Assembly: GCA_002867475.1 (NCBI GenBank)
Contig: PKTL01000051.1
Coordinates: 4,640 to 68,639, forward strand
Direction: 5' to 3'
From: Candidatus Woesearchaeota archaeon
Lineage (GTDB): Archaea > Nanobdellota > Nanobdellia > Woesearchaeales > BM511
Length of the DNA: 64,000 nucleotides
This document shows, in pieces, positions 25,978-51,596 of this stretch. The notes under the pieces are model-generated. The model saw only the letters and a list, made by a program, of their open reading frames with translations, ran no database searches and was not told the DNA's origin. Within the stretch, counting starts at the first letter, position 1. Each line of letters begins with the position of its first letter. The translations under genes and the position numbers were made by a program.

Positions 25978-26145
25978 TTATTTGCTCTTTGTAAAAGTAT
26001 AGGTTCTCATCTTTGGACCATTTCCATAGCCACATGACGAGCAAACTTTTTTAGTCTTATGATAGGTATGTCCTCCACATCTTCTGCACATGATGTGGGT
26101 TTTCCCTTTGGAATGCTTTCCTTGACTTGCTGTTCCTTTACTCAT
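25978..26145 (-). CDS. rpl37e: 50S ribosomal protein L37e
   Basis: 55-aa ORF (below the ORF-track cutoff): MSKGTASQGKHSKGKTHIMCRRCGGHTYHKTKKVCSSCGYGNG... with a C4 zinc ribbon; classic LSm–L37e adjacency. Confidence 0.75.
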   Translation of the reverse strand: MSKGTASQGKHSKGKTHIMCRRCGGHTYHKTKKVCSSCGYGNGPKMRTYTFTKSK

Positions 26146-31038: not shown

Positions 31039-31221
31039 TTACTTAATTGTACTAAAATTATCTTCTTTTGAACTTCTTATTTTGAGTTATTGCCTTTATA
31101 TTTGTTGAACCACATTCTTTGCACATCCAAGTAGTTGTGGATTTAGAATTTTTACCATGACTATGATTGGTTCTTGATCGTATATTTGTACTTTTACAGC
31201 TTTCACATATATTATTTCCCA
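31039..31221 (-). CDS. small zinc-ribbon protein (about 60 aa), tentative
   Basis: Hand translation gives MGNNICESCK...WMCKECGST (two CxxC pairs); not present in the ORF track, so coordinates are approximate. Confidence 0.25.
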
Positions 31222-31224
31222 TTT

Positions 31225-31449
31225 TTAGAACCTATCCTCTCTATGTTTACTAAAGCAATTTCTACAATATACTGGTTTTCCTTCTGTTGGTCTAAATGGT
31301 ACTTCGCATTCTTGCTTGCAATCAGAACAAGTTGCTTTATGCATTTCTCTTTGCACATTATTAAAATGTCTGTTTGATCCGCCAAATTGCTTATCAAATC
31401 CTTCTCCTCTTCTAGAATCTCCCCTATTTCGATTATTTTCTCTTCTCAT
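31225..31449 (-). CDS. small zinc-ribbon protein (CxxC-x17-CxxC), Arg-rich N-terminus
   Basis: CSDCKQECEVPFRPTEGKPVYCRNC. Confidence 0.45.
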   Translation of the reverse strand: MRRENNRNRGDSRRGEGFDKQFGGSNRHFNNVQREMHKATCSDCKQECEVPFRPTEGKPVYCRNCFSKHREDRF

Positions 31450-31621
31450 ATTATCACTGATTTGTTTTTAGAAACAGTAAAAAAATCACATTAAAATCTT
31501 AAATTAACAAAATCCCAACATCATTACGAATGTCTCTTATTTTTAGTAAATCCCTTCTCTTTATAAAAATATGTTTTGATAAAATTTTACTAAAATAAAC
31601 TAAACTTTTAATAATGAATAT

Positions 31622-48048: not shown

Positions 48049-48621
48049 ATGCAAAGATTTAGTGATTACTATGAATTTGATTTTTTAGAACGGATTAATA
48101 TTTATAGATATGAAAAAGAGAATAGAACAAAGCTGTATGTTACAGACAGTATAGATGATATATTTGAAAGCATCAATGGAAAACAAAAAGTAAAATATGG
48201 AAAGAATAATCTCATCCAGATTCATTTGCCAGGTTTTGCAAAAGTATTGATGGACACTAAAACTAAAGAGAAATTATTAATCACTAGTGATAAAAGATTG
48301 AATGATATGATAAAAAGATACAGAAAGATCATGCTGTTAGACTATGATGATATTGTCGAACCTTATGTTTCAACTTTATCTTGTTTTGAATTTCAGCAAG
48401 AGCCTCATATGACTCATAGATTTGCAATTAACACAAGTATAGAGAAAAAATTGTTTGAAAATGTTACTTCAGACAACATAACTTATATCCAAGACATGGT
48501 TTTTTCACATTGCATCAATGACCCACACCCTATTCTACAAACATATAATAGTCAGATAAGTGGTAAAAAAAAGAAAAAAGAAAAACCTCTTTTGGTTCTT
48601 AAAAAAGCCTTAGAGTTTTAA
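48049..48621 (+). CDS. hypothetical protein
   Basis: 190-aa ORF. Confidence 0.35.
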   Translation: MQRFSDYYEFDFLERINIYRYEKENRTKLYVTDSIDDIFESINGKQKVKYGKNNLIQIHLPGFAKVLMDTKTKEKLLITSDKRLNDMIKRYRKIMLLDYDDIVEPYVSTLSCFEFQQEPHMTHRFAINTSIEKKLFENVTSDNITYIQDMVFSHCINDPHPILQTYNSQISGKKKKKEKPLLVLKKALEF

Positions 48622-49838
48622 ATTGCAGCTCTGACTCCAAGCATGTCTTCACCTTTGCTTCTGTCTCGCATCCTTTCAAGGGTTGTTTGCATCTGCTTTT
48701 CTAGAAGTCTTGCAACCTCATTAGCACATTGTACAACTCCAAATTCCTCGTTTGATGCTACAAAGGTACCGAAGTCACTTGAGATTCGTGCTCTGATATA
48801 ATACATATCAACTCCACGAGTCTTTCCTTTATTCAATCTGCCTTTATGCTTCTTGACATAGATAAATGCGTGACCTTCACCAATCTGTTCCTCATGCCTT
48901 TTCAACAGTTCATCAAACTCATTTATCACTTCAGCTTTTATATGTGGTTCAAGCTCGTTTGCTTGACCTCGTAACTGGATAAATCTTTTCTGTTCTTGAG
49001 CGTGACTCACAATTGCTGCAAGTGGTTCAAGAAGATCTTTTTTCGTTACTATGCCACTAAGCTTATCTTCTGCATCAACTAATATAACACTGTTCATACT
49101 ACGTTCATGCATCAAACTTATAGCTTTTTCAACAGTATCATTAGGCATTAAAGTCCTTAACGGATATCCCATTATGCTGTCCACCCCATTATTAAGCAAG
49201 GTGCTTCTATCATCAAAATCTGCAAAGCTCATAGTATTGTTTGATACTAAAACTTTTGTAACAATATCATGCTTTGAGACTATACCTACAGGTTTTCCAT
49301 CCTTTACAACAGGAACCCTGCTTATAGCTGCTTCATTGAATAAGTGCATCACAGTTGCAATTTTTTCATCAGCTTGCACTATTCTTGGTGCACCTGACAT
49401 GAATCTTCTTATTGGAAGATCACCTATATTTGTAGCTTCAATTGATTTCATCAAAACATCATTTGCTGTTACGATTCCAAGTATTGATTCCCCATCAAAA
49501 ACTGGAAGATGTTTCATATTGCTATCAAGCATTAGCTTTGCAGCATGGAATATGTCTGTGTCTTTTTCTAGCTTTGGTGCTTTAACTGCTAGATTCTTAA
49601 CTTTTGTATGATCTGATTGATTTCCACTTCTAAAAATTATACGTTCTGTAACTACCCCCACATATCGGTTCTCGTCGTCAAAGACTAGTAATGTCCTTGG
49701 ACGCGTATCTTTAGCGAATTTTGCAACAGCATCCTTTACTGTCTCATCGCTCTGTATGGTGTCATATTCTACTTTAACTAATTCATCAATTTTGTGTTCC
49801 ATACTTACTACCTCTCTAAAAGCTGATCGCTTTTTCAA
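48618..49838 (-). CDS. four-CBS-domain protein with a C-terminal HPF/RaiA (ribosome hibernation factor)-like domain
   Basis: Four CBS repeats; the C-terminal ~100 aa (RFIQLRGQANELEPHIKAEVINEFDELLKR...HAFIYV...MYYIRARISSDFGTFVASNEEFGVVQCANEVARLLEKQ) follow the HPF beta-alpha-beta-beta-beta-alpha pattern. Confidence 0.45.
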   Translation of the reverse strand: MKKRSAFREVVSMEHKIDELVKVEYDTIQSDETVKDAVAKFAKDTRPRTLLVFDDENRYVGVVTERIIFRSGNQSDHTKVKNLAVKAPKLEKDTDIFHAAKLMLDSNMKHLPVFDGESILGIVTANDVLMKSIEATNIGDLPIRRFMSGAPRIVQADEKIATVMHLFNEAAISRVPVVKDGKPVGIVSKHDIVTKVLVSNNTMSFADFDDRSTLLNNGVDSIMGYPLRTLMPNDTVEKAISLMHERSMNSVILVDAEDKLSGIVTKKDLLEPLAAIVSHAQEQKRFIQLRGQANELEPHIKAEVINEFDELLKRHEEQIGEGHAFIYVKKHKGRLNKGKTRGVDMYYIRARISSDFGTFVASNEEFGVVQCANEVARLLEKQMQTTLERMRDRSKGEDMLGVRAAI

Positions 49839-50094
49839 TATCTTGCCTGCAAACAGGACAAATTAAAATCTCTGTCTTTATTCTTTCTCCACAATTTGGA
49901 CAAAGCCTCGTTCCTTCATACTCTTTTGTAGGATGATCTAACTCTTCATCATATCCTTTCAAGAAAGCTTCTTCAAAATCGGTTATCTCATCACCATCCA
50001 TTAGTTCATCGACAACTTGCTTGTCATATATATCTTCTTCGAAATCTTCTTCATAGAATTCCTTATCTTCCATCTGTTCTCTCATCTCTATCAC
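49816..50094 (-). CDS. acidic protein with a C-terminal zinc ribbon
   Basis: CPNCG...CPVCRQD; 23-nt overlap with the CBS-HPF gene. Confidence 0.4.
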   Translation of the reverse strand: MIEMREQMEDKEFYEEDFEEDIYDKQVVDELMDGDEITDFEEAFLKGYDEELDHPTKEYEGTRLCPNCGERIKTEILICPVCRQDIEKAISF

Positions 50095-50182
50095 CCACCC
50101 TATATATGTAATTTATTATTTATATAGTTAGTGTTTAAGAAATGGGAAGATTATAACAAAAAAGAAAAAAGAATATTAAAAA

Positions 50183-50893
50183 TTAAGCTTCAACTTCAAT
50201 TATGTTGGAAGAATTATCAACCATGCCCGAGTTTATCTTGCACCTTTCGAAAAGATTTGACAATAGATTAAAGCATTTCTGGCTGTCTTTTCCATCGACT
50301 ATAATATTAATCTCTTCGCCACAACTATGAGCTTGTACAAAATTTATATGGTTCATTGAAAGCTCATTGACCAAGGTTAAAAGAACTCCTGGAGTTTCTC
50401 TTGATTCAAATGGCATTGCAATAATGAACTCAGATAAGCCTTTATGACTTCTAATTATCTTTCCATGGAATAGATCAAATATTTTATCTAGATTTATTTC
50501 TTCAACAATTGCGTGAAGAACCGTATGTCCTTTAATTAACCGAAATAAGTCATTATTATTATATACTTCATTGATCTTGAATGATTTATTTATAAGATGT
50601 AATGTTGATTCATCTTTTTTGAATTCTAACTTGACCATGTTGCTTCTTACATGAAGATATGATTTTGCTAAGATATCTTGTGCACTATGGAAAAGATTGC
50701 TTTCTTTTTTTGATCTTTTAAGCCGCCTTATTGCAGTTCTCAAGGATTCATGCTTTATGTCTTCTCCTGGATTATTATTCATTATGTGCTTTGCAAGACT
50801 TGTTGCACTAATTAAGTTCCTTTCGAAACCTATTTTTAGTACTGGGTCGTCTTCAAGTGCTTTTTTTATTAGGTAATTCATGTTTTGTTCCAT
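50183..50893 (-). CDS. putative regulator with a C-terminal ACT-like domain
   Basis: C-terminal GVLLTLVNELSMNHINFVQAHS ACT-like pattern. Confidence 0.35.
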   Translation of the reverse strand: MEQNMNYLIKKALEDDPVLKIGFERNLISATSLAKHIMNNNPGEDIKHESLRTAIRRLKRSKKESNLFHSAQDILAKSYLHVRSNMVKLEFKKDESTLHLINKSFKINEVYNNNDLFRLIKGHTVLHAIVEEINLDKIFDLFHGKIIRSHKGLSEFIIAMPFESRETPGVLLTLVNELSMNHINFVQAHSCGEEINIIVDGKDSQKCFNLLSNLFERCKINSGMVDNSSNIIEVEA

Positions 50894-51125: not shown

Positions 51126-51596
51126 ATGGTACACAACATAAACAAGAAAGATATACAAATAATATCTCACTTAAGAGAAGATGCAAGAATGAGTTTGACT
51201 CAGATGAGCAAAAGCACAAGAATTCCTGTTAGCACAATCTTTGATAGGATCAAAAGCAACGATTTCATAGTGAAACACACAGCACTTCTAGATTTTGCTA
51301 AACTTGGATATTTTACAAGAGCAAACATATCCATAAAAGTAGACAGAGAAGATAAAGAAGAATTAAAAAAATTCTTGCTAAAAAATAATCATGTGAACTC
51401 ATTATATAGAATAAATGATAACTTTGATTTTTTGATAGAAGGAATCTTTATACACATAAGCGATATGGAAGAATTTATTGATATGATGGAATCAAGATTC
51501 AAGATAATAGAGAAAAAAACACAATATATCCTTGAAGATATAAAAAGAGAAGGATTCATGTCAACCATGAACTACCCCTTCATCAATTCTCAATAA
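51126..51596 (+). CDS. Lrp/AsnC family transcriptional regulator
   Basis: N-terminal HTH (DIQIISHLREDARMSLTQMSKSTRIPVSTIFDRI) plus a RAM domain. Confidence 0.6.
   Translation: MVHNINKKDIQIISHLREDARMSLTQMSKSTRIPVSTIFDRIKSNDFIVKHTALLDFAKLGYFTRANISIKVDREDKEELKKFLLKNNHVNSLYRINDNFDFLIEGIFIHISDMEEFIDMMESRFKIIEKKTQYILEDIKREGFMSTMNYPFINSQ

What the first reader, a model, noticed from the sequence alone, without database searches (positions are those of the whole stretch)
48618..50094. Four-CBS-domain protein fused to a bacterial-type HPF/RaiA-like ribosome-hibernation domain, co-transcribed with an acidic zinc-ribbon protein
Seen in sequence: the 406-aa protein has four CBS repeats. Its C-terminal ~100 aa tracks the HPF/YfiA fold pattern position by position: RFIQLRGQANELEPHIKAEVINEFDELLKR aligns with the canonical MQLNITGHNVEITEALREFVTAKFAKLE, and the closing helix GVVQCANEVARLLEKQ aligns with LYAAIDLAVDKLERQL. 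A 92-aa acidic zinc-ribbon gene overlaps its start by 23 nt. Established knowledge: CBS pairs bind adenine nucleotides, HPF/RaiA dimerises or silences ribosomes in bacteria, and bona fide HPF homologs are essentially unreported in archaea. Inference: an energy-charge-gated ribosome-hibernation factor in an archaeon, possibly acquired from bacteria or representing an undescribed archaeal family.
Basis: partly seen in the sequence, partly recalled or inferred. Interest (0 to 1): 0.55.

Follow-up and report, generated by a model that had tools for sequence, protein, structure and literature searches.

The report
Woesearchaeal HibA/AHA ribosome hibernation factor

Summary
The gene at 48618-49802 (-) encodes four CBS domains (Pfam E 2e-38) followed by a C-terminal domain of about 120 aa. 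[quoted passage not shown] Its 31 best Foldseek matches in the PDB are all HPF/RaiA/YfiA/pY proteins.

The whole protein aligns end to end with Pyrococcus abyssi HibA (PDB 9SR9, E 1.4e-46). HibA is a hibernation factor solved by cryo-EM on the 70S ribosome, and the same family is called AHA in Haloferax. The window comes from a Candidatus Woesearchaeota MAG. This is a new member of a known kind.

Corrections:
- The true start is ATG 49802, giving 394 aa rather than 406.
- The two genes do not overlap. A 13-nt spacer carrying a GAGGT Shine-Dalgarno lies between them.
- The window's own sequence does not reach Pfam PF02482. The link to that family is by fold and by profile.

Residual novelty: the acidic zinc-ribbon gene (pI 4.1) sits directly upstream of HibA in six related lineages. 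One of these has lost the CBS module and keeps only a standalone HPF. Relatives of the acidic motif that lack the zinc ribbon are never next to HibA. A functional partnership is possible but unproven.

The parts
48618..49802 (-). hibA/AHA orthologue: 394 codons plus a TAA stop. It is deposited as hypothetical protein C0585_04970 of a Candidatus Woesearchaeota MAG.
   Evidence: ORF. P0001 is 394 aa and 100% identical. Full-length phmmer match to P. abyssi HibA 9SR9_H at E 1.4e-46, query residues 5-380 against chain residues 6-377.
48987..49802 (-). CBS module, residues 1-272: four tandem CBS domains forming two Bateman pairs. The G-h-h-T/S-x-x-D motif is complete in CBS2 (G109-D115), CBS3 (G173-D179) and CBS4 (G250-D256). 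It is degenerate in CBS1 (G49...I55). The h-y-y'-h-P motif is present in CBS2 (M96-P100) and CBS3 (I160-P164).
   Evidence: Pfam PF00571, four stretches, E 2.1e-38. Invariant columns S161, P164, G173, D179, G250, T253, D256. Motif definitions and the CBS3/4 ATP/AMP site in HibA come from the paper and its supplement.
49191..49247 (-). Long loop inserted between CBS3 and CBS4, residues about 186-204 (VSNNTMSFADFDDRSTLLN). It is positionally equivalent to the HibA 'PTC loop' (P. abyssi residues 190-207). It is one residue shorter and less basic.
   Evidence: Pairwise alignment with 9SR9_H. Alignment A1. Description of the PTC loop.
48621..48986 (-). HPF/RaiA-like domain plus C-terminal tail, residues 273-394, pI 8.8. 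Elements: beta1 273-279, alpha1 286-302, beta2 310-319, beta3 331-342, beta4 345-354, long alpha2 356-387.
   Evidence: AF2 pLDDT 85.1, pTM 0.78. Foldseek PDB ranks 1-31 are all HPF/RaiA/YfiA/pY, E 8e-7 to 4e-3. Phmmer of this piece alone hits HibA residues 271-377 at E 1.5e-10. The family profile hits bacterial HPFs at E 2.8e-5 to 7.8e-4.
48813..48845 (-). Basic beta2-beta3 hairpin loop KGRLNKGKTRG, residues 320-330. It corresponds to the archaea-specific beta14-beta15 insertion of HibA, which contacts uS12 and the decoding bases. In this clade it is 5 residues longer than in P. abyssi.
   Evidence: Gap pattern in the alignment with 9SR9_H and in A1. Unstructured loop in the model. Role of the insertion in HibA.
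49803..49815 (-). 13-nt spacer between the zinc-ribbon stop (TAG 49816-49818) and the hibA ATG. It carries a GAGGT Shine-Dalgarno at 49810-49814 and leaves no room for a promoter or terminator.
   Evidence: Sequence read directly. The same GAGGTG precedes hibA in L081-L085, where the gaps are 26-103 nt.
49816..50085 (-). Acidic zinc-ribbon gene: 89 aa from ATG 50085, with an alternative ATG at 50073. The longest ORF starts at GTG 50094. The N-terminal roughly 57 aa has net charge -20 and carries the conserved motif DEIxxxEEAFLKGYD. The C-terminus is CPNCG-x10-CPVC.
   Evidence: Charge. Homologues P0010-P0014 and conserved columns. AF2 gives a disordered N-terminus, a helix on the motif and a ribbon at pLDDT about 87.
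50091..50126 (-). Putative promoter and leader of the two-gene unit (inferred). There is a TATATAAA at 50119-50126, a second TATATA at 50101-50106, and a GGTGA Shine-Dalgarno-like element at 50091-50095.
   Evidence: Read from the sequence. No archaeal promoter tool was available, so this is inference only.
48565..48606 (-). Four oligo-T runs (T6, T5, T6, T8) starting 12 nt after the hibA stop. This is the archaeal type of intrinsic terminator signal and probably marks the end of the transcription unit.
   Evidence: Sequence read directly. That oligo-T tracts terminate archaeal transcription is established knowledge, not tested here.

Best explanation
The gene at 48618-49802 (-) is the Woesearchaeota orthologue of the archaeal ribosome hibernation factor HibA, also called AHA.

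By homology with the cryo-EM structures of P. abyssi HibA and H. volcanii AHA, the proposed mechanism is as follows. The basic C-terminal HPF/RaiA-like domain binds the small subunit in the mRNA/tRNA channel, at the decoding centre, h44, uS12 and the uS19 tail. There it blocks mRNA and the A- and P-site tRNAs. The four-CBS disc is tethered to it and occupies vacant tRNA sites on the large subunit (PTC, uL5 or the L1 stalk), with its long CBS3-CBS4 loop able to reach the peptidyl-transferase centre. Together the two domains clamp an idle 70S ribosome, silence it and protect it during starvation or stress. The CBS3/CBS4 pair probably binds one adenine nucleotide, with AMP preferred.

What is shown here: the domain architecture, the fold, the collinear homology and the conserved nucleotide-site motifs.

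What is inferred from the family: ribosome binding, inhibition of translation and nucleotide binding.

The gene is very probably transcribed together with the upstream acidic zinc-ribbon gene. The role of that gene is open.
For: - Four CBS domains.
- The full-length protein matches HibA 9SR9_H at E 1.4e-46 over residues 5-380, and 9l96_a, a 406-aa CBS protein, at E 1.2e-33. 9SR9 is 'HibA-ATP' in PMC13324472.
- The C-terminal piece alone hits the HibA C-terminal domain at E 1.5e-10.
- The AF2 model is b-a-b-b-b-a with pLDDT 85. Foldseek ranks 1-31 are all HPF/RaiA/YfiA/pY, with TM-score normalised to the target up to 0.85.
- A profile of the domain finds 339 cluster representatives, both fused forms of about 370-400 aa and standalone forms of about 100-140 aa.
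- 20 of 52 standalone relatives hit PF02482, best E 3e-9. The family profile reaches E. coli, Acinetobacter and Bacillus HPFs at E 3e-5 to 8e-4 across the whole domain.
- The CBS3/4 nucleotide motifs are invariant, matching the published ATP/AMP site.
- The PTC-loop equivalent and both archaeal insertions are present.
- The function of the family is documented by cryo-EM, in vitro inhibition and deletion phenotypes.
- The family is already reported as widespread in archaea, DPANN included.
Against: - No experiment exists for this protein or for any DPANN member.
- Identity to P. abyssi HibA is low, so conservation of individual ribosome contacts was not verified. The HibA authors themselves note that the CBS surface contacts are not conserved.
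- The window's own C-terminal domain gives no PF02482 hit.
- The PTC-loop equivalent is acidic or neutral (SFADFDDRS), whereas in P. abyssi it is basic. The PTC-inserted state may therefore differ or be absent.
- Nucleotide gating of ribosome binding was not seen for HibA.
Confidence: 0.88

Rival explanations
1. The acidic zinc-ribbon gene is only a syntenic neighbour. It belongs to a broader family of small acidic DPANN proteins that happens to lie upstream of hibA in this clade. It is co-transcribed for reasons of genome compaction and has no specific role in hibernation.
For: - The metagenome scan found about 25 small proteins that share only the N-terminal motif DE[IL]xxxE[ED]AF[LM]KGY. 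None of them has a zinc ribbon, and none has a HibA/HPF gene within 2.5 kb.
- These relatives lie next to ArgRS, ThrRS, GyrB or a PhoU/AbrB-like gene.
- ThrRS is also near the pair in the window, L083 and L084, so this neighbourhood is broadly syntenic.
- 78 of 80 more distant HibA loci have no upstream zinc-ribbon ORF.
- Reconstituted HibA needs no extra factor to bind ribosomes.
- In L082 the spacer is 103 nt, AT-rich and T-rich, which would allow a separate promoter.
Against: - The pair is directly adjacent, with 13-103 nt gaps, in all six lineages where the zinc-ribbon version exists. This holds although ThrRS identity between three of these genomes (window, L083, L084) is only 55-72%, and the genes between hibA and ThrRS vary from 0 to 3.
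- The pair survives loss of the CBS module in L084/L085.
- The zinc ribbon is found only in the copies that precede HibA/HPF (7 of 7 against 0 of 25).
Confidence: 0.6
2. The acidic zinc-ribbon protein is a dedicated partner of the HPF domain. Its disordered tail (net charge about -20) and short helix mimic nucleic acid and bind the basic rRNA-binding face of the HPF domain. This would sequester HibA away from ribosomes during growth, or help release it on recovery, making it a sequestering or anti-hibernation factor.
For: - Tight, conserved adjacency in six lineages, including one with a CBS-less standalone HPF.
- Complementary charge: zinc-ribbon protein pI 4.1, HPF domain pI 8.8, and pI 10.0 for the standalone form.
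- The AF2 model shows a disordered acidic N-terminus with a short helix on the conserved motif, typical of a region that folds on binding.
- The HibA authors explicitly propose an unidentified 'sequestering partner' whose interaction might depend on nucleotides.
Against: - All the evidence is contextual.
- The association is confined to what is probably a single clade, so the 7/7 against 0/25 contrast may reflect one evolutionary event.
- Relatives of the motif occur without HibA.
- No interface prediction could be run.
- The published HibA, AHA and ARC studies mention no zinc-ribbon partner.
Confidence: 0.2
3. The protein is a CBS-domain regulator with a non-ribosomal role, for example a transcription regulator like the CM-3/HhpR family or a binder of replication and recombination proteins. 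In that case the HPF-like domain would have been re-used for another nucleic-acid target.
For: - NCBIfam gives sub-threshold CBS-only similarity to HhpR and other CBS regulators.
- One homologue carries the JGI label 'predicted transcriptional regulator'.
- HibA was pulled down with replication and recombination proteins in Thermococcales.
Against: - Every NCBIfam hit lies far below its cut-off and covers CBS repeats only.
- The best and only full-length match is HibA.
- The HPF domain retains the family's fold and insertions.
- HhpR-type CM-3 proteins lack an HPF domain.
Confidence: 0.04
4. The HPF-like domain was acquired recently from bacteria by this DPANN lineage.
For: The HibA paper favours a bacterial origin for the archaeal HPF domain, but as an early, ancient transfer.
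Against: - The closest relatives of the domain are archaeal HibA and HPF-like proteins: E 1e-26 for HibA against 3e-5 for the best bacterial HPF.
- The window's own domain does not reach the bacterial Pfam model.
- The AHA study finds clean domain-level separation with no intermixing.
- Local GC of 0.34 matches the window's range of 0.29-0.35.
Confidence: 0.03

Closest known systems
HibA (Pyrococcus abyssi PAB0961 / Q9UYR4, Thermococcus barophilus; PDB 9SR9-9SRF, 9T7H; Madru et al., Nat Commun 2026, PMC13324472)
   Same: - Same architecture: a four-CBS module of about 270 aa followed by an HPF/RaiA-like b-a-b-b-b-a domain.
- Collinear alignment over residues 5-380 at E 1.4e-46.
- A long CBS3-CBS4 loop is present.
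- Both archaea-specific insertions in the HPF domain are present.
- The CBS3/4 adenine-nucleotide motifs are conserved.
   Different: - Sequence identity is low.
- The PTC-loop equivalent is one residue shorter and acidic or neutral rather than basic.
- The beta14-beta15 insertion is 5 residues longer and very basic (KGRLNKGKTRG).
- The host is a mesophilic DPANN organism with about 32% GC.
- An acidic zinc-ribbon gene precedes it, which is not reported for HibA.
- It has not been tested experimentally.
AHA (AMPKgamma-HPF from Archaea; Haloferax volcanii HVO_2384; Souza et al. 2026 preprint, PMC12934967)
   Same: [quoted passage not shown] A loop in the third CBS reaches the PTC, and AMP is bound in the CBS tetrad.
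   Different: - AHA was seen with two AMP molecules, whereas HibA binds one nucleotide. How many sites are used here is unknown. Three of the four G-h-h-T/S-x-x-D motifs are intact.
- The PDB chain 9l96_a (406 aa, E 1.2e-33) is a second structurally solved relative. I could not find its paper.
Bacterial HPF / RaiA (YfiA, protein Y) / plastid PSRP1 (Pfam PF02482 Ribosomal_S30AE)
   Same: - Same fold: Foldseek ranks 1-31, for example E. coli HPF 2rql at TM-score 0.74 normalised to the target, and Listeria HPF 8uu4 at 0.84.
- Profile-level homology in the same register.
- The binding site on the 30S subunit is the same in the characterised archaeal homologues.
   Different: - The window's sequence does not reach the Pfam model.
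- Its terminal helix is longer, and it carries two archaeal insertions.
- It is fused to a CBS module rather than being standalone or carrying the long-HPF dimerisation domain.
- No 100S-type dimerisation is implied.
Standalone or double CBS-module hibernation factors: SriA-SriD (M. acetivorans, PDB 9ZNF/9ZNG/9ZNI, PMC13454478), ARC-P/ARC-A (Methanolobus, 10.64898/2026.01.19.700304), Dri
   Same: The four-CBS modules are related. 9znf_4 matches residues 28-260 at E 1.9e-23. They bind ribosomes and are linked to energy status.
   Different: - These factors lack the HPF domain and block the ribosome with other 'occlusion elements'.
- ARC-A is a CBS protein, not a zinc ribbon, so it is not the counterpart of the acidic neighbour here.
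- Their phyletic distribution largely excludes HibA.
E. coli RMF + short HPF (a small co-factor acting with an HPF-fold protein)
   Same: This is a conceptual parallel only: a small protein encoded or acting alongside an HPF-fold factor. The comparison rests on my own knowledge and was not tested here.
   Different: RMF is small and basic and binds the 30S subunit near the anti-Shine-Dalgarno region. The neighbour here is highly acidic (pI 4.1), has a zinc ribbon and shows no sequence similarity to RMF. No membership is claimed.

Membership tests
HibA / AHA (archaeal CBS-HPF hibernation factors) | N-terminal module of four tandem CBS domains (about 270 aa) | tested here: met
   Pfam PF00571, four stretches, E 2.1e-38. 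Aligns with HibA residues 6-269.
HibA / AHA (archaeal CBS-HPF hibernation factors) | C-terminal domain with the b-a-b-b-b-a HPF/RaiA fold | tested here: met
   AF2 pLDDT 85 with elements E5-11, H18-34, E42-51, E63-74, E77-86, H88-119. Foldseek ranks 1-31 are all HPF/RaiA family.
HibA / AHA (archaeal CBS-HPF hibernation factors) | Collinear full-length homology to a structurally characterised member | tested here: met
   9SR9_H at E 1.4e-46, residues 5-380 against 6-377. 9l96_a at E 1.2e-33. The C-terminal piece alone gives E 1.5e-10.
HibA / AHA (archaeal CBS-HPF hibernation factors) | Long loop inserted between CBS3 and CBS4 ('PTC loop' / 'loop 3') | tested here: met
   Residues about 186-204 align with P. 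abyssi 190-207 with a single 1-residue gap. The composition differs, and whether the loop reaches the PTC cannot be tested.
HibA / AHA (archaeal CBS-HPF hibernation factors) | Two archaea-specific insertions in the HPF domain (beta13-alpha11 and beta14-beta15) | tested here: met
   Both regions are present. The second is 5 residues longer than in P. abyssi.
HibA / AHA (archaeal CBS-HPF hibernation factors) | Adenine-nucleotide site at the CBS3/CBS4 interface (h-y-y'-h-P and G-h-h'-T/S-x-x'-D/N motifs) | tested here: met
   ISRVP (160-164), GIVSKHD (173-179) and GIVTKKD (250-256). S161, P164, G173, D179, G250, T253 and D256 are invariant in A1. The motifs are as defined. Actual binding was not tested.
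HibA / AHA (archaeal CBS-HPF hibernation factors) | Binds the 30S mRNA/tRNA channel, stabilises idle 70S ribosomes and inhibits translation | not testable with these tools
   This needs co-sedimentation, cryo-EM or in vitro translation. It is known only for P. abyssi, T. barophilus and H. volcanii.
Pfam PF02482 Ribosomal_S30AE (bacterial HPF/RaiA/YfiA) | Sequence scores above the Pfam gathering threshold | tested here: not met
   No PF02482 hit for the whole protein at E<=1 or for the C-terminal 126 aa at E<=10.
Pfam PF02482 Ribosomal_S30AE (bacterial HPF/RaiA/YfiA) | Homology detectable through intermediate sequences or profiles | tested here: met
   20 of 52 standalone relatives hit PF02482, best E 3.1e-9. 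The A4 profile hits bacterial HPF chains at E 2.8e-5 to 7.8e-4 over the whole domain.
Pfam PF02482 Ribosomal_S30AE (bacterial HPF/RaiA/YfiA) | Standalone protein of about 95-115 aa, or a long HPF with a C-terminal dimerisation domain | tested here: not met
   The domain is C-terminal to a 272-aa CBS module and no dimerisation domain follows it. A standalone derivative does exist in the relative L084.
Standalone CBS-module hibernation factors (SriA-D, ARC-P/ARC-A, CM-1/2/4/5) | A four-CBS protein without an HPF domain | tested here: not met
   PDB chains 9znf, 9zni and 9zng match only residues about 28-260. The window protein has the HPF domain.
Zinc-ribbon small proteins (the upstream gene; Pfam Zn_Ribbon_1 / DZR-like) | Four-Cys CxxC-x(n)-CxxC knuckle pair scoring above a family threshold | tested here: inconclusive
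   CPNCG-x10-CPVC is invariant in 7 homologues. AF2 gives the ribbon pLDDT about 87. All Pfam and NCBIfam zinc-ribbon hits are below their cut-offs.

The most novel reading that the evidence does not exclude
In one Woesearchaeota clade, HibA (or its CBS-less HPF derivative) works as a two-gene module with a dedicated acidic zinc-ribbon protein. The disordered polyanionic tail of that protein would mimic rRNA or mRNA and bind the HPF domain. It would act as the 'sequestering partner' or release factor that the HibA authors postulated but did not identify. This would be the first protein antagonist or chaperone of an archaeal hibernation factor. In addition, the motif DEIxxxEEAF[LM]KGY would define an undescribed family of small acidic DPANN proteins.
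Probability: 0.17. Interest if true: 0.6.

Novelty: new member of a known kind. Interest (0 to 1): 0.3.

Why it matters
That prediction matches discoveries published independently in 2025-2026 as HibA and AHA.

For biology, this locus adds little to the main story. The family is already reported in about 47% of archaeal genomes, with HPF-like derivatives common in DPANN.

Three things are useful:
1. It is a clear DPANN (Woesearchaeota) example with clade-specific features: a longer basic uS12-facing hairpin and a non-basic PTC loop.
2. A close relative documents a recent loss of the CBS module, which supports the published 'HibA to standalone HPF' scenario.
3. A conserved upstream acidic zinc-ribbon gene offers a concrete, testable candidate for the unidentified partner that may control when HibA engages or leaves the ribosome. 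That question is still open for the whole family.

Tried and rejected
- The word-indexed homologue search with the C-terminal 126 aa found nothing. The exhaustive profile search was needed instead.
- Direct Pfam scans for PF02482 were negative.
- I considered that the acidic neighbour might be ARC-A of the 'dual-factor' ARC complex. I rejected this because ARC-A is itself a four-CBS protein.
- I searched the HibA and AHA papers for zinc, operon, synteny and neighbour. Nothing relevant turned up.
- I tried to model a linker-fused zinc-ribbon plus HPF chain to probe an interface. The zinc-ribbon protein alone gave a low-confidence model (pLDDT 65), so I ran no fold search on it.
- Upstream zinc-ribbon ORFs occur at two distant HibA loci: L001 (acidic, about 270 nt upstream) and L118 (an uncalled double zinc ribbon). 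I judged these compatible with chance. Only 1 of the 80 genome loci has one, and about 4% of small ORFs in the window match the same Cys pattern.
- I could not find the paper behind PDB 9L96.
- There are no tRNA or Rfam features anywhere in the window.
- There is no second HibA/HPF gene and no second motif-bearing ORF in the window.
- The bacterial sigma-70 promoter scanner was not used, because it does not apply to archaea.


Full report
**What is at the coordinates**

The minus strand carries a long ORF at 48618-49838 and a small ORF at 49816-50094 just upstream. The window is AT-rich (GC 0.29-0.35), and the region does not stand out in composition.

The long ORF's product is identical to a deposited 394-aa protein, 'hypothetical protein C0585_04970 [Candidatus Woesearchaeota archaeon]' (P0001, 100% identity and coverage). 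The window therefore comes from a DPANN archaeal MAG.

The 406-aa reading from a TTG start is an artefact of taking the longest ORF, for three reasons:
- The deposited protein starts at the ATG at 49802.
- All homologues start at the equivalent Met.
- A GAGGT lies 7 nt upstream of that ATG.

The upstream ORF stops at TAG 49816-49818. The two genes are therefore separated by 13 nt and do not overlap by 23 nt. The small gene most likely starts at ATG 50085 (89 aa, preceded by GGTGA) or at ATG 50073 (85 aa, as in P0010).

**Checking the observation**

Pfam finds four CBS stretches (E 2.1e-38). NCBIfam gives only sub-threshold, CBS-only similarities.

The C-terminal 126 aa gives no Pfam hit at all, PF02482 included, even at E<=10. 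A word-indexed homologue search with it also found nothing.

A phmmer search of PDB sequences was more informative. The C-terminal piece alone matches residues 271-377 of chain 9sr9_H at E 1.5e-10. The full protein matches the same chain end to end, residues 5-380 against 6-377, at E 1.4e-46. It also matches 9l96_a, a 406-aa 'CBS domain-containing protein', at E 1.2e-33.

**What those PDB entries are**

9SR9-9SRF and 9T7H are the cryo-EM structures of HibA from Pyrococcus abyssi (Madru et al., Nat Commun 2026, PMC13324472).

HibA is described as a module of four CBS domains (residues 1-269) fused to a b-a-b-b-b-a HPF/RaiA-like domain (residues 270-392). The paper reports the following:
- The C-terminal domain sits in the 30S mRNA/tRNA channel.
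- The CBS module occupies one of three positions on the 50S subunit: the PTC, uL5 or the L1 stalk.
- A long loop (residues 190-207) reaches the peptidyl-transferase centre.
- The CBS module binds one adenine nucleotide at the CBS3/4 interface, with Kd of 12 uM for AMP, 65 uM for ADP and 113 uM for ATP.
- Neither AMP nor ATP noticeably changed ribosome binding.

The same family was found independently in Haloferax volcanii as AHA (HVO_2384). There it has two bound AMP molecules and a deletion phenotype.

HibA is reported in 47% of archaeal genomes. Standalone HPF/RaiA-like derivatives are reported in 8%, 'mostly DPANN and Nitrososphaerales'. The AHA study counts 3,160 homologues across 17 phyla.

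**Independent tests of the HPF claim on this protein**

- *Structure.* An AlphaFold2 model of residues 269-394, built from a six-sequence alignment (A3), has pLDDT 85.1 and pTM 0.78. Its order of elements is b-a-b-b-b-a with a long final helix.
- *Fold search.* Foldseek against the PDB returns HPF, RaiA/YfiA, protein Y, PSRP1 and RafH chains at ranks 1-31. E-values run from 8e-7 to 4e-3, probability is 1.00, and TM-score normalised to the target reaches 0.85. The first unrelated protein appears at rank 32.
- *Family size.* The A3 profile finds 339 cluster representatives at E<=1e-3 among 1.84 billion. They are a mix of proteins of about 370-400 aa with the domain at roughly 270-380, and standalone proteins of about 100-140 aa.
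- *Link to Pfam.* Of 52 standalone relatives, 20 hit PF02482, best E 3.1e-9.
- *Link to bacterial HPFs.* A profile of those relatives hits HibA (E 1.5e-26), 9l96_a (E 4e-24) and then bacterial HPFs, including E. coli HPF, at E 2.8e-5 to 7.8e-4 across the whole domain.

The domain is an HPF/RaiA homologue by fold and by profile, even though its own sequence is too divergent for the Pfam model.

**Finer anatomy**

*CBS motifs.* The G-h-h-T/S-x-x-D motif is intact in CBS2 (G109-D115), CBS3 (G173-D179) and CBS4 (G250-D256). It is degenerate in CBS1. The h-y-y'-h-P motif is present in CBS2 and CBS3. The CBS3/4 residues S161, P164, G173, D179, G250, T253 and D256 are invariant among seven homologues. 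They correspond to the published nucleotide site.

*PTC-loop equivalent.* The loop is present at residues about 186-204. It is one residue shorter than in P. abyssi and is acidic or neutral rather than basic.

*HPF insertions.* Both archaea-specific insertions of the HPF domain are present. The beta14-beta15 hairpin binds uS12 near the decoding bases in HibA. Here it is five residues longer and very basic (KGRLNKGKTRG).

*Charge.* The HPF domain is basic (pI 8.8) and the CBS module is mildly acidic.

*Terminator.* Four oligo-T runs follow the stop codon at 48565-48606, which is the usual archaeal terminator signal.

**The acidic zinc-ribbon neighbour**

The product has pI 4.09 and net charge -19, and the N-terminal 57 aa carries -20. 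AF2 predicts a disordered N-terminus, a short helix on the conserved EEAFLKGY motif, and a confident zinc ribbon.

The HibA and AHA papers mention no zinc-ribbon partner, and in the ARC paper the partner ARC-A is itself a CBS protein.

Homologues are few, about 85-90 aa long and 38-78% identical to one another. Wherever flanking DNA is available, a HibA-type gene follows directly:
- L081 and L082.
- L083.
- L086.
- The window itself.

The gaps are 13-103 nt, and a GAGGTG Shine-Dalgarno usually precedes hibA.

In L084 and L085 the zinc-ribbon gene is followed by a standalone 131-aa HPF-like protein (pI 10.0) that has lost the CBS module. The ThrRS of L084 is the closest of all to the window's, at 72% identity. 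ThrRS identities among the three genomes compared (window, L083, L084) are 55-72%. So the pair has persisted over substantial divergence and through a change of domain architecture.

Two observations argue against a dedicated partnership:
- Among 80 more distant HibA loci (Bathyarchaeia, Thermoplasmata and others, 27-34% identical), only one has any upstream CxxC...CxxC ORF. One further case, L118, has an unrelated double zinc ribbon.
- A metagenome scan with the zinc-ribbon alignment recovered about 25 small acidic proteins that share only the N-terminal motif DE[IL]xxxE[ED]AF[LM]KGY. They have no zinc ribbon and no HibA/HPF gene within 2.5 kb. They lie next to ArgRS, ThrRS, GyrB or a PhoU/AbrB-like gene, and they match no Pfam family.

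The zinc-ribbon form thus occurs only where HibA/HPF follows (7 of 7 against 0 of 25). This may reflect a single clade and a single evolutionary event.

My estimates are about 0.6 for inherited synteny without a specific function and about 0.2 for a real partnership. The most attractive form of a partnership is a polyanionic mimic that binds the basic HPF face. This would be the 'sequestering partner' the HibA authors hypothesise.

**Verdict**

The protein is a member of the HibA/AHA family, with every sequence-testable defining feature met. Its function follows by homology.

The parts of the interpretation that do not hold are as follows:
- 'Energy-charge gating' remains unproven for the family as a whole.
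- 'Undescribed family' and 'unreported in archaea' are out of date.
- A recent bacterial origin is unlikely, because the nearest relatives of the domain are archaeal.

Novelty: a new member of a known kind. The only new lead is the clade-restricted acidic zinc-ribbon neighbour, together with the broader uncharacterised acidic-motif family.

Noticed in passing
L087-L117 (metagenome contigs), e.g. L098:458-652, L109:691-891, L092:2498-2755: This is an apparently undescribed family of small (45-110 aa), very acidic proteins sharing the motif DE[IL]xxxE[ED]AF[LM]KGY. They have no Pfam match and no zinc ribbon. They recur next to ArgRS (L096, L099, L100, L102), ThrRS (L092, L093, L097), GyrB (L087, L090, L111) or a divergently transcribed PhoU/AbrB-like gene (7 loci). 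The window's zinc-ribbon protein is the zinc-ribbon-bearing branch of this family.
   Followed up: partly
L084:698-1093 and L085:481-876: This is a standalone 131-aa HPF-like protein (pI 10.0) that has cleanly lost the CBS module. It sits directly after the zinc-ribbon gene, in a Woesearchaeota MAG (GCA_018221135.1) whose ThrRS is 72% identical to the window's. It is a recent example of the published 'HibA loses its CBS module' scenario.
   Followed up: partly
window 48049-48621 (+): A 190-aa ORF with no family match converges on hibA and overlaps its stop codon by 4 nt. Its lysine-rich C-terminus (SGKKKKKEK...) is encoded by the complement of hibA's oligo-T terminator-like runs. Its 3' end may therefore be over-called, or the two genes may share a bidirectional terminator.
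   Followed up: no
window 50183-50893 (-): A 236-aa ORF lies 97 nt upstream of the zinc-ribbon gene on the same strand. It shows only weak, sub-threshold similarity to ACT domains and to the C-terminal regulatory region of aspartate kinase (Pfam E 0.03; NCBIfam E 8e-4). It could be a small-molecule-binding regulatory protein.
   Followed up: no
L118:2168-2383 and L001:10-192: Unrelated small zinc-ribbon ORFs lie upstream of two distant HibA genes. One is an uncalled double zinc ribbon 118 nt upstream of P0015. The other is an acidic CPSCG...CPFC protein about 270 nt upstream of a Methanosarcinales HibA. Both are probably chance, but they would be worth a systematic count.
   Followed up: partly
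window 1-64000: There are no tRNA genes (ARAGORN) and no Rfam family at gathering score anywhere in the 64 kb. This is unusually RNA-gene-poor for a stretch of this length.
   Followed up: no
window 51126-51596 (+): An Lrp/AsnC-type winged-helix regulator (HTH_24 E 8e-6, sub-threshold AsnC_trans_reg) lies about 1 kb upstream of the unit on the opposite strand. It is a possible local regulator but was not examined.
   Followed up: no
window 25981-26145 (-), 31061-31467 (-): There are three small basic CxxC...CxxC ORFs of 54-74 aa. From my own knowledge, the one at 25981-26145 resembles ribosomal protein eL37. They were seen only in a regex count of zinc-ribbon ORFs and were not scanned against any library.
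   Followed up: no
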